From Octopus vulgaris (lineage: Eukaryota): a stretch of 64,000 bases of DNA. The translations under genes and the position numbers were made by a program. The stretch spans positions 40,920,001 through 40,984,000 of the forward strand of contig OX597838.1 in assembly GCA_951406725.2 (NCBI GenBank). The letters are read 5' to 3'. The notes under the pieces were generated by a model. It saw only the letters and a list, made by a program, of their open reading frames with translations. It was not told where the DNA came from and made no database searches. Positions 3,517 through 4,127 of this stretch are shown piece after piece. Positions within the stretch are counted from its first letter, which is position 1; each line of letters begins with the position of its first letter.

Positions 3517-3518
<2 letters not shown>

Positions 3519-4127
3519 TCTAAAAGATGAATTAGGGTAAACGTTTTTAATTTTTCACCTATTTCCGAATTATATTACTTTGCGGTTAGAGTTATGGCTG
3601 CTCTGTCTAGTGGACGAATGGCCTGTTAAGGCCATTCCTAAATTGTTATATATTTACATTTTAGTCTCGTGACTATTTTTCTTTTCCAATGGGCCGCTGG
3701 TAGTGATAAATTTCTATCGAATTTTTTACTACCCTAAATTGATTAATTGATTATTTTCTGACTAATTCTGAGATTGAATCGGCAGTTTATATTTGCTGCT
3801 GATAAGATTGGCGCGATTGCGCTGGTCTTCGAAAATTTTAAGACAGATATCCCAGAGGCTTCGACGCAGTACCCTCGTGTATATTTGCCTCTACCAAAGG
3901 TTTCTTTACTGACGAAGCGTGACCTAGGTAGATTAGCTTAATTTAATTTAATTAAGCTGGTCTATCATTAAAAACGCAGAAACGATGCATCGTCTAAAAG
4001 ATGAATTAGGGTAAACGTTTTTAATTTTTCACCTATTTCCGAATTATATTACTTTGCGGTTAGAGTTATGGCTGCTCTGTCTAGTGGACAAATGGCCTGT
4101 TAAGGCCATTCCTAAATTGTTATATAT
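3517..4127 (+). mobile_element. Partial-tandem hammerhead unit (474-bp period) in (TA)n; retrozyme or pLTR-like
   Basis: ~135 bp direct repeat at 3517-3653 and 3991-4127; no ORF; (TA)n flanks. Confidence 0.8.
3905..3998 (+). ncRNA. Type I hammerhead ribozyme with long stem II
   Basis: ttta-CTGACGA-a-gcgt-[long hairpin]-acgc-a-GAAA-cgatgcatcg-TC-taaa; palindromic stem III, GUC site at 3992-3994. Confidence 0.8.

What the first reader, a model, noticed from the sequence alone, without database searches (positions are those of the whole stretch)
3517..4127. 474-nt retrozyme-like monomer delimited by hammerhead cleavage sites
Seen: a direct repeat with period 474. The left copy starts within a few nt of the GUC (3518-3520) and the second GUC (3992-3994) belongs to a complete hammerhead with a ~60-nt stem II and a 12-nt palindromic stem III. 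Extra hairpins are present (aatggcc/ggccatt; agattggcgc/gcgctggtct) and there is no ORF. Inference: this is about 1.3 turns of a self-cleaving monomer, with the 5' edge set by cleavage.
Basis: partly seen in the sequence, partly recalled or inferred. Interest (0 to 1): 0.7.

Follow-up and report, generated by a model that had tools for sequence, protein, structure and literature searches.

The report
Penelope-footprint retrozyme with mispaired hammerhead
This is one of hundreds of copies of a small protein-free jumping repeat carrying a predicted self-cutting RNA motif; its copies end at two fixed points inside the unit, as Penelope-type jumping genes in the same genome do, so it is likely pasted in by their enzyme, probably from an RNA circle, and it belongs to a known kind of element.

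Summary
In detail: 1.3 turns of a 474-nt ORF-less unit with a type I hammerhead, inside (TA)n. The inference that cleavage sets the 5' edge fails: this copy keeps CGUC upstream of the cut, and copy 5' ends are no more frequent at the GUC (4/49) than beside it (12/193). The 3' ends are what is fixed: 118 of 131 arms stop at one of two internal sites (unit positions ~127 and ~225), and back-to-back insertions use one of each. Two autonomous Hydra-like Penelope families here show the same rule (12/12 and 13/14 pairs). Turns and arms of one insertion share a haplotype (0/83 site differences, against 42% between loci), arrays reach 7 turns, and none of 145 loci is fused to a Penelope ORF. Best reading: a non-LTR retrozyme copied by a Penelope-like enzyme from one RNA, probably circular. 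Caveat: this lineage has an A·A mismatch where sister lineages keep the G-C or A-U pair closing stem II, so cleavage may be weak. Circles and cleavage are untested. The scan already reported this architecture for related 360-490-nt families on other DNA of this genome.

The parts
3477..3516 (.). Left (TA)n tract, insertion target
   Evidence: the last AT is shared with the element
3515..4127 (+). Whole insertion, about 1.3 turns, 5'-truncated; last 7 nt ambiguous with the TA flank
3515..3520 (+). Remnant of the upstream hammerhead (ends in GUC); shows the cDNA ran past this cut site
3521..3994 (+). Full 474-nt unit, cut site to cut site, 36% GC, no ORF
3617..3636 (+). Hairpin just before site E1, kept across subfamilies with one- and two-sided changes
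3637..3654 (+). Internal copy of fixed 3' end site E1 (unit position ~127), followed by TA-like bases
3699..3732 (+). Conserved hairpin just before site E2
3717..3747 (+). Second fixed 3' end site E2 (unit position ~225), not used in this copy; 17 of 27 nt match, in register, the first 3' end of a Hydra-like Penelope family
3805..3828 (+).
3903..4001 (+). Type I hammerhead: stem I, CUGACGA, 63-nt stem II with A.A at 10.1/11.1, GAAA, palindromic stem III, predicted cut after 3994
3982..3993 (+). 12-nt palindrome; -1.0 kcal/mol as a hairpin, -18.7 as a duplex of two copies, so predicted to work as a dimer
3995..4120 (+). Partial second unit ending at E1, the fixed 3' end of this insertion
4121..4399 (.). 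Right (TA)n tract

Best explanation
The stretch is a 5'-truncated, 1.3-turn insertion into a TA microsatellite of a multi-copy, protein-free 474-nt hammerhead repeat (a non-LTR retrozyme) that is likely copied in by the enzyme of a Penelope-like element, probably from a single circular RNA. Inferred cycle: a copy longer than one unit is transcribed; two hammerheads pair through the palindrome and cut out a monomer; a host ligase closes it; a Penelope-like endonuclease cuts (TA)n, and the reverse transcriptase primes at two internal sites (E1, E2) that end in TA-like bases, one site for each end of the broken DNA; it runs round the template, across the junction, and falls off at variable points. 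This gives fixed 3' ends, variable 5' ends, up to 7 turns and back-to-back E1+E2 arms. Shown: anatomy, copy structure, shared footprint with autonomous elements. Inferred: enzyme, priming, cleavage, circle.
For: Fixed 3' ends: 118 of 131 arms in 83 loci end at E1 or E2; of 42 back-to-back pairs 33 are E1+E2, 1 E2+E2, 0 E1+E1, 8 have one odd end (three of the 33 are near-identical duplicates). All 69 E1-pattern hits: 40 have an inverted partner, 38 ending at E2, 0 at E1. Divergent subfamilies: 33 of 35 arms, 9 of 9 pairs. Same rule in autonomous elements that also carry a hammerhead and sit in (TA)n: 899-908-aa family 12 of 12 pairs with both ends readable; 727-aa family 13 of 14. One template per insertion: at 10 sites polymorphic in the window's subfamily, 0 of 40 differences between turns, 0 of 43 between arms, 2281 of 5463 between loci; 9 private variants are shared by two or more turns (35 are in one turn). 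E1 and E2 lie near the 5' end of a cut monomer, yet 45 of 69 E1 arms run past the cut and 82 of 83 junctions keep exact length. Hammerhead helices covary across 24 variants: 91% of cells paired, 6 pairs with two-sided change, slid controls 22-44%. Published life cycle for animal retrozymes (PMC7229834) and Penelope origin (10.64898/2026.07.22.740005).
Against: No test of cleavage or circles. The window's lineage has A.A at 10.1/11.1 (56 of 95 distinct hammerheads; G-C 26, A-U 10), where PMC4209133 reports a highly conserved G-C; the active fold costs 9 kcal/mol over the minimum-energy fold; 8 of 9 predicted Xenopus dimers did not cleave in vitro. A homogeneous linear multimer would give the same shared haplotypes. 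Exceptions exist: L038 has 9 non-private differences between turns, and L002's turns differ at 2 sites and its arms at one. No autonomous element with extended similarity to the unit among 115 Penelope-bearing loci plus 12 more. Covariation counts are from related sequences and two of five measures do not beat the shuffles.
Confidence: 0.6

Rival explanations
1. Same Penelope-like enzyme and two priming sites, but the template is an uncut linear multimer transcribed from a homogeneous array; the hammerhead is weak or dead in this lineage.
For: A.A mismatch at 10.1/11.1 in the window's lineage. A.A loci have somewhat longer arms than paired-type loci (median 561 against 463 nt, p = 0.026; two or more cut sites in 12/41 against 4/33, p = 0.09; 12 loci unclassified, 1 other), confounded by relatedness and alignment bias. 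Arrays of up to 7 units exist as possible sources. Low activity of Penelope-type hammerheads in vitro (PMC4209133).
Against: Copy-of-copy with 5' truncation would shorten arrays over time. Haplotypes are mosaic between loci (four-gamete pairs such as 53x68, 61x331) yet uniform within insertions, which fits a monomer bottleneck. Core and palindrome stay conserved with compensatory change.
Confidence: 0.27
2. Self-cut linear monomers are the templates, and the enzyme jumps from the 5' end of one to the 3' end of another.
For: Would explain mosaic haplotypes between loci; small excess of 5' ends within 10 nt of the cut against a flat null (7/69, 2.9 expected, p = 0.03).
Against: The excess vanishes against neighbouring bins (4/49 vs 12/193) and 82 of 83 junctions carry no added or lost bases; successive turns never switch haplotype at the 10 sites (0/40).
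Confidence: 0.07
3. One reading: the insertion's 5' edge is the self-cleavage site.
For: This copy starts 4-6 nt from the GUC; 1 of 69 arms (L221) starts exactly at it.
Against: The copy keeps CGUC, which a cut RNA lacks; 5' ends are spread over the whole unit.
Confidence: 0.03
4. The unit is only the terminal repeat left by an ordinary autonomous Penelope-like element.
For: Retrozymes resemble Penelope terminal repeats in Xenopus; 15 of 145 loci have Penelope protein hits nearby.
Against: In all 15 the hit is 180-3068 nt away with a TA run of 12 nt or more between; units join head to tail with no ORF up to 7 times; several subfamilies keep the same 474-479 period.
Confidence: 0.03

Closest known systems
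Animal non-LTR retrozymes (Cervera and de la Pena 2020, PMC7229834: passages, sections 14 and 17; Li, Clavereau and Pollet 2026, 10.64898/2026.07.22.740005: parts 1-3 of 5)
   Same: Non-coding head-to-tail unit of low GC with one type I hammerhead, dispersed as monomers to multimers, strongly self-paired, co-occurring with Penelope-like elements.
   Different: 474 nt (above the 170-400 nt of 2020, within the 51-972 of 2026); 63-nt stem II; A.A at 10.1/11.1; fixed internal 3' ends, inverted arms and (TA)n targeting are not described for retrozymes in the parts I read; circles not shown here.
Hydra-clade Penelope-like elements (Craig et al. 2021, PMC8557442: passages and section 11)
   Same: (TA)n targeting, hammerhead near the end, partial tandems, inverted 5'-truncated arm, and a 'tail' on one end only. 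Two families with DKT, CxxC/CxH (and CxCx5C in one) show the same two-end rule in this genome.
   Different: No ORF; tail about 98 nt rather than the published 30-40 (71 and about 155 nt in the two local families); only a 27-nt resemblance to one local family's end.
Penelope-type minimal hammerheads (Cervera and de la Pena 2014, PMC4209133: parts 1-2 of 4)
   Same: Short stem I, enlarged stem II, palindromic stem III suited to dimer cleavage.
   Different: Stem II is about 63 nt rather than 7-8 bp; the conserved G10.1-C11.1 pair is lost in this lineage; not attached to an ORF.

Membership tests
Animal non-LTR retrozyme | Short non-coding unit in head-to-tail tandem copies | tested here: met
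   474-nt period, up to 7 turns, no ORF
Animal non-LTR retrozyme | Type I hammerhead in each unit | tested here: met
   Core and three helices with covariation; this single copy has one complete motif, other loci have several
Animal non-LTR retrozyme | Low GC (<45%) and highly self-paired unit | tested here: met
   36% GC, z = -5.6
Animal non-LTR retrozyme | Dispersed, non-autonomous, no LTR-type flanks | tested here: met
   457 pattern hits; 0 of 145 loci fused to an ORF
Animal non-LTR retrozyme | Self-cleavage activity | not testable with these tools
   A.A at 10.1/11.1 raises doubt for this lineage
Animal non-LTR retrozyme | Expressed as unit-length circular RNA | tested here: inconclusive
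   Only assembled contigs of runs guessed to be RNA were laid; they cannot show circles. Genomic evidence is indirect
Autonomous Penelope-like element | RT plus GIY-YIG ORF | tested here: not met
Autonomous Penelope-like element | 5' truncation, inverted arm, tail on one end, microsatellite target | tested here: met
   works like a Penelope insertion without being one
Non-autonomous derivative of a given Penelope family | Sequence similarity to an autonomous terminal repeat | tested here: inconclusive
   No extended match; 15-18 of 27 nt in register between E2 and one end of the 727-aa family, spotted by eye first
Canonical type I hammerhead | Watson-Crick pair at 10.1/11.1 | tested here: not met
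   A.A here; G-C or A-U in 36 of 95 distinct family variants

The most novel reading that the evidence does not exclude
A Hydra-clade Penelope enzyme recognises a short signal shared with its own end, primes twice at fixed internal sites on one retrozyme circle, and the youngest lineage has been selected for a crippled hammerhead (A.A) that keeps the circle closed long enough for multi-turn copying: a ribozyme tuned down to favour its own retrotransposition.
Probability: 0.2. Interest if true: 0.7.

Novelty: new member of a known kind. Interest (0 to 1): 0.4.

Why it matters
Mobilisation of animal retrozymes by Penelope-like elements through circles has been proposed, with support from co-occurrence and terminal-repeat similarity. 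This family offers a countable footprint (two fixed internal ends, one per arm, one haplotype per insertion) identical to that of active autonomous elements in the same genome, and a natural series of hammerheads with and without the 10.1/11.1 pair. Together they make two open questions testable: how the Penelope 'tail' arises, and whether ribozyme strength controls array length. The element itself is of a known kind and the scan has reported the architecture in sister families.

Tried and rejected
Rfam: no hammerhead match to the element; whole-window hits shown were microsatellite artefacts. Sequencing runs: no RNA holder listed on record. Contigs of four runs guessed to be RNA cover most of the unit with several subfamilies, but no piece spans the stretch and contigs cannot show ends or circles; no DNA run was compared. 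Partner search: GIY-YIG hits (148 matches of 150 scored, 6136 candidates) were dominated by a 781-aa Neptune-like family with two ends 40 nt apart, no hammerhead by my pattern and no similarity to the unit; an older degraded family showed none either; a motif shared with the 900-aa family did not beat shuffles. The only real matches in those loci were separate insertions of the unit family itself (L093, L321). RNA editing: 1 of 9 turn-shared and 2 of 16 arm-shared private variants are A>G, so no sign here. Classic twin priming with abutting arms rejected: in 27 of 38 pairs the E2 arm runs well past E1, so both arms copy the same stretch (counted). Target-site duplication cannot be read inside (TA)n. 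One motif-anchored extraction failed and was redone by alignment. Literature: no paper on the effect of a 10.1/11.1 mismatch was found; no paper holding 'Penelope-like element', 'inverted', 'twin priming' and 'tail'; searches for retrozyme or hammerhead with octopus or cephalopod listed no paper describing such a family (PMC7229834 main text has neither word). Supplements of these papers were not seen and may list such families. The host was not identified; 'cephalopod' comes from earlier scan notes and my recall of a flanking repeat.

Full report
Observation. The sequence is as described: 3515-3648 recurs at 3989-4122 with one mismatch, period 474, between two (TA)n tracts. The second GUC (3992-3994) closes a type I hammerhead with CUGACGA at 3909, a 63-nt stem II, GAAA at 3979 and a perfect 12-nt palindrome as stem III. 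There is no ORF. The unit folds far better than shuffles, linear or circular. The palindrome is weak as a hairpin (-1.0 kcal/mol) and strong as a duplex (-18.7), which fits the dimer mechanism described in PMC4209133.

Family. The 2.8-Gb genome holds 237 exact matches to the window's hammerhead end and 220 to a compensatory variant of the palindrome; some loci hold several. Subfamilies range from about 72 to 99% identity to the window unit and keep a period of 474-479. Across 24 diverse hammerheads (one chimeric row dropped) 91% of cells pair, six pairs change on both sides, and slid controls reach 22-44%; the rows are related, so this is supportive, not a probability. Positions 10.1/11.1 are G-C in 26 and A-U in 10 of 95 distinct variants, but A.A in 56, including the window. 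Activity of this copy is therefore in doubt.

Ends. In 83 loci (7 overlapping ones removed; 23 came from a similarity search biased to the window's extent), 118 of 131 arms end at unit position about 127 (E1) or 225 (E2), each followed by (TA)n and each carrying CCTAAATTG and TA-like bases. Of 42 back-to-back pairs, 33 are E1+E2 and none E1+E1. All 69 hits of an E1-anchored pattern were then examined: 40 have an inverted partner, 38 ending at E2, 2 elsewhere, none at E1. In 25 loci of divergent subfamilies 9 of 9 pairs obey the rule. The 5' ends scatter: arm lengths run from 34 to 3259 nt, one of 69 starts at the cut, and the stop rate at the first GUC (4/49) matches flanking bins (12/193). 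The window's start near the GUC is thus most likely chance, and it retains four bases that a cut RNA would lack.

Who moves it. None of 145 loci is continuous with a Penelope ORF; in the 15 with a hit nearby a TA run intervenes. The genome has at least three active-looking autonomous families. A 781-aa Neptune-like one (RT and GIY-YIG) has two ends 40 nt apart. Two with Hydra-clade motifs as listed in PMC8557442 section 11 (assigned by motif, no tree) carry hammerheads and two ends downstream of the cut, 62 and about 216 nt (12 of 12 readable pairs use one of each) and 37 and 108 nt (13 of 14; 3754 exact pattern hits). This is the published 'tail on one end only'. The retrozyme reproduces it without an ORF. 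No extended similarity links it to any of them. One lead: the last 27 nt of the 727-aa family's first end match best or second best exactly at E2 in all four units tested (15-18 of 27), but the score beats shuffles clearly in only one (8/300), seven ends were tried, and I noticed it by eye first.

Template. E1 and E2 sit near the 5' end of a cut monomer, so any arm longer than 127 or 225 nt must cross the junction; 45 of 69 E1 arms do, 11 cross two or more, and 82 of 83 junctions keep their length. In the window's subfamily (51 arms, 38 loci, 10 polymorphic sites) turns of an arm differ at 0 of 40 comparisons, arms of a locus at 0 of 43, different loci at 42%, while site pairs show all four combinations. 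Nine private variants are shared by turns, 35 are not. Each insertion therefore usually copies one monomer sequence repeatedly, as a circle would allow. A homogeneous uncut multimer is not excluded, and the A.A mismatch plus slightly longer A.A arms keep that rival alive. Exceptions are L038 and L002.

Comparison. It meets the genomic criteria for an animal non-LTR retrozyme (PMC7229834; 10.64898/2026.07.22.740005, which sampled no mollusc). Cleavage and circles are untested. The fixed-end footprint is known for Penelope-like elements; I did not find it described for retrozymes in the parts read or in searches. Earlier notes of this scan reached the same architecture for 360-, 485- and 490-nt families in this genome; I had the end and haplotype results before reading them, and they are not independent support. 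A look-up by this unit's sequence returned nothing.

Verdict. Real feature, half-right interpretation, new member of a known kind. Interest 0.4.

Noticed in passing
window 4400-4885: A back-to-back two-arm element with a short hammerhead on each arm (near 4600 on -, 4682 on +) starts at the far end of the same TA tract; looks like another Penelope-type insertion.
   Followed up: no
window 21679-21966: The same short hammerhead sits inside an open frame whose end resembles a restriction-like endonuclease of non-LTR elements (label recalled, not tested).
   Followed up: no
window 46865-46960: End fragment of a very abundant Hydra-like Penelope family (3754 exact hammerhead hits; 727-aa intact ORF in L321, L327; two fixed ends 37 and 108 nt after the cut).
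   Followed up: partly
window 62419-62865: Another inverted two-arm element with a hammerhead-like motif on each arm.
   Followed up: no
window 13363-14784 (-): Truncated Neptune-like Penelope ORF, 60% identical to the 781-aa family, lacking about 50 residues including the catalytic RT motif.
   Followed up: partly
L250-L265: Hydra-like family with 899-908-aa ORF, a 57-nt stem II hammerhead and a tail of about 155 nt, much longer than the published 30-40.
   Followed up: partly
L157:1418-1528 and related loci: 17 of 95 distinct hammerhead variants have CCGAUGA instead of CUGAUGA, always in lineages that keep G-C at 10.1/11.1.
   Followed up: no
L018:1406-1516: Both turns carry GUA instead of GUC at the cut site, a change shared by the turns of one insertion.
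   Followed up: no
window 32622-33023 and 49371-50106: Young tandem arrays of a 184-bp unit (95-97% identical copies), likely a SINE (label recalled).
   Followed up: no
L002, L003, L006: Three near-identical complex insertions on one contig, likely a segmental duplication; treated as one in the haplotype test.
   Followed up: partly
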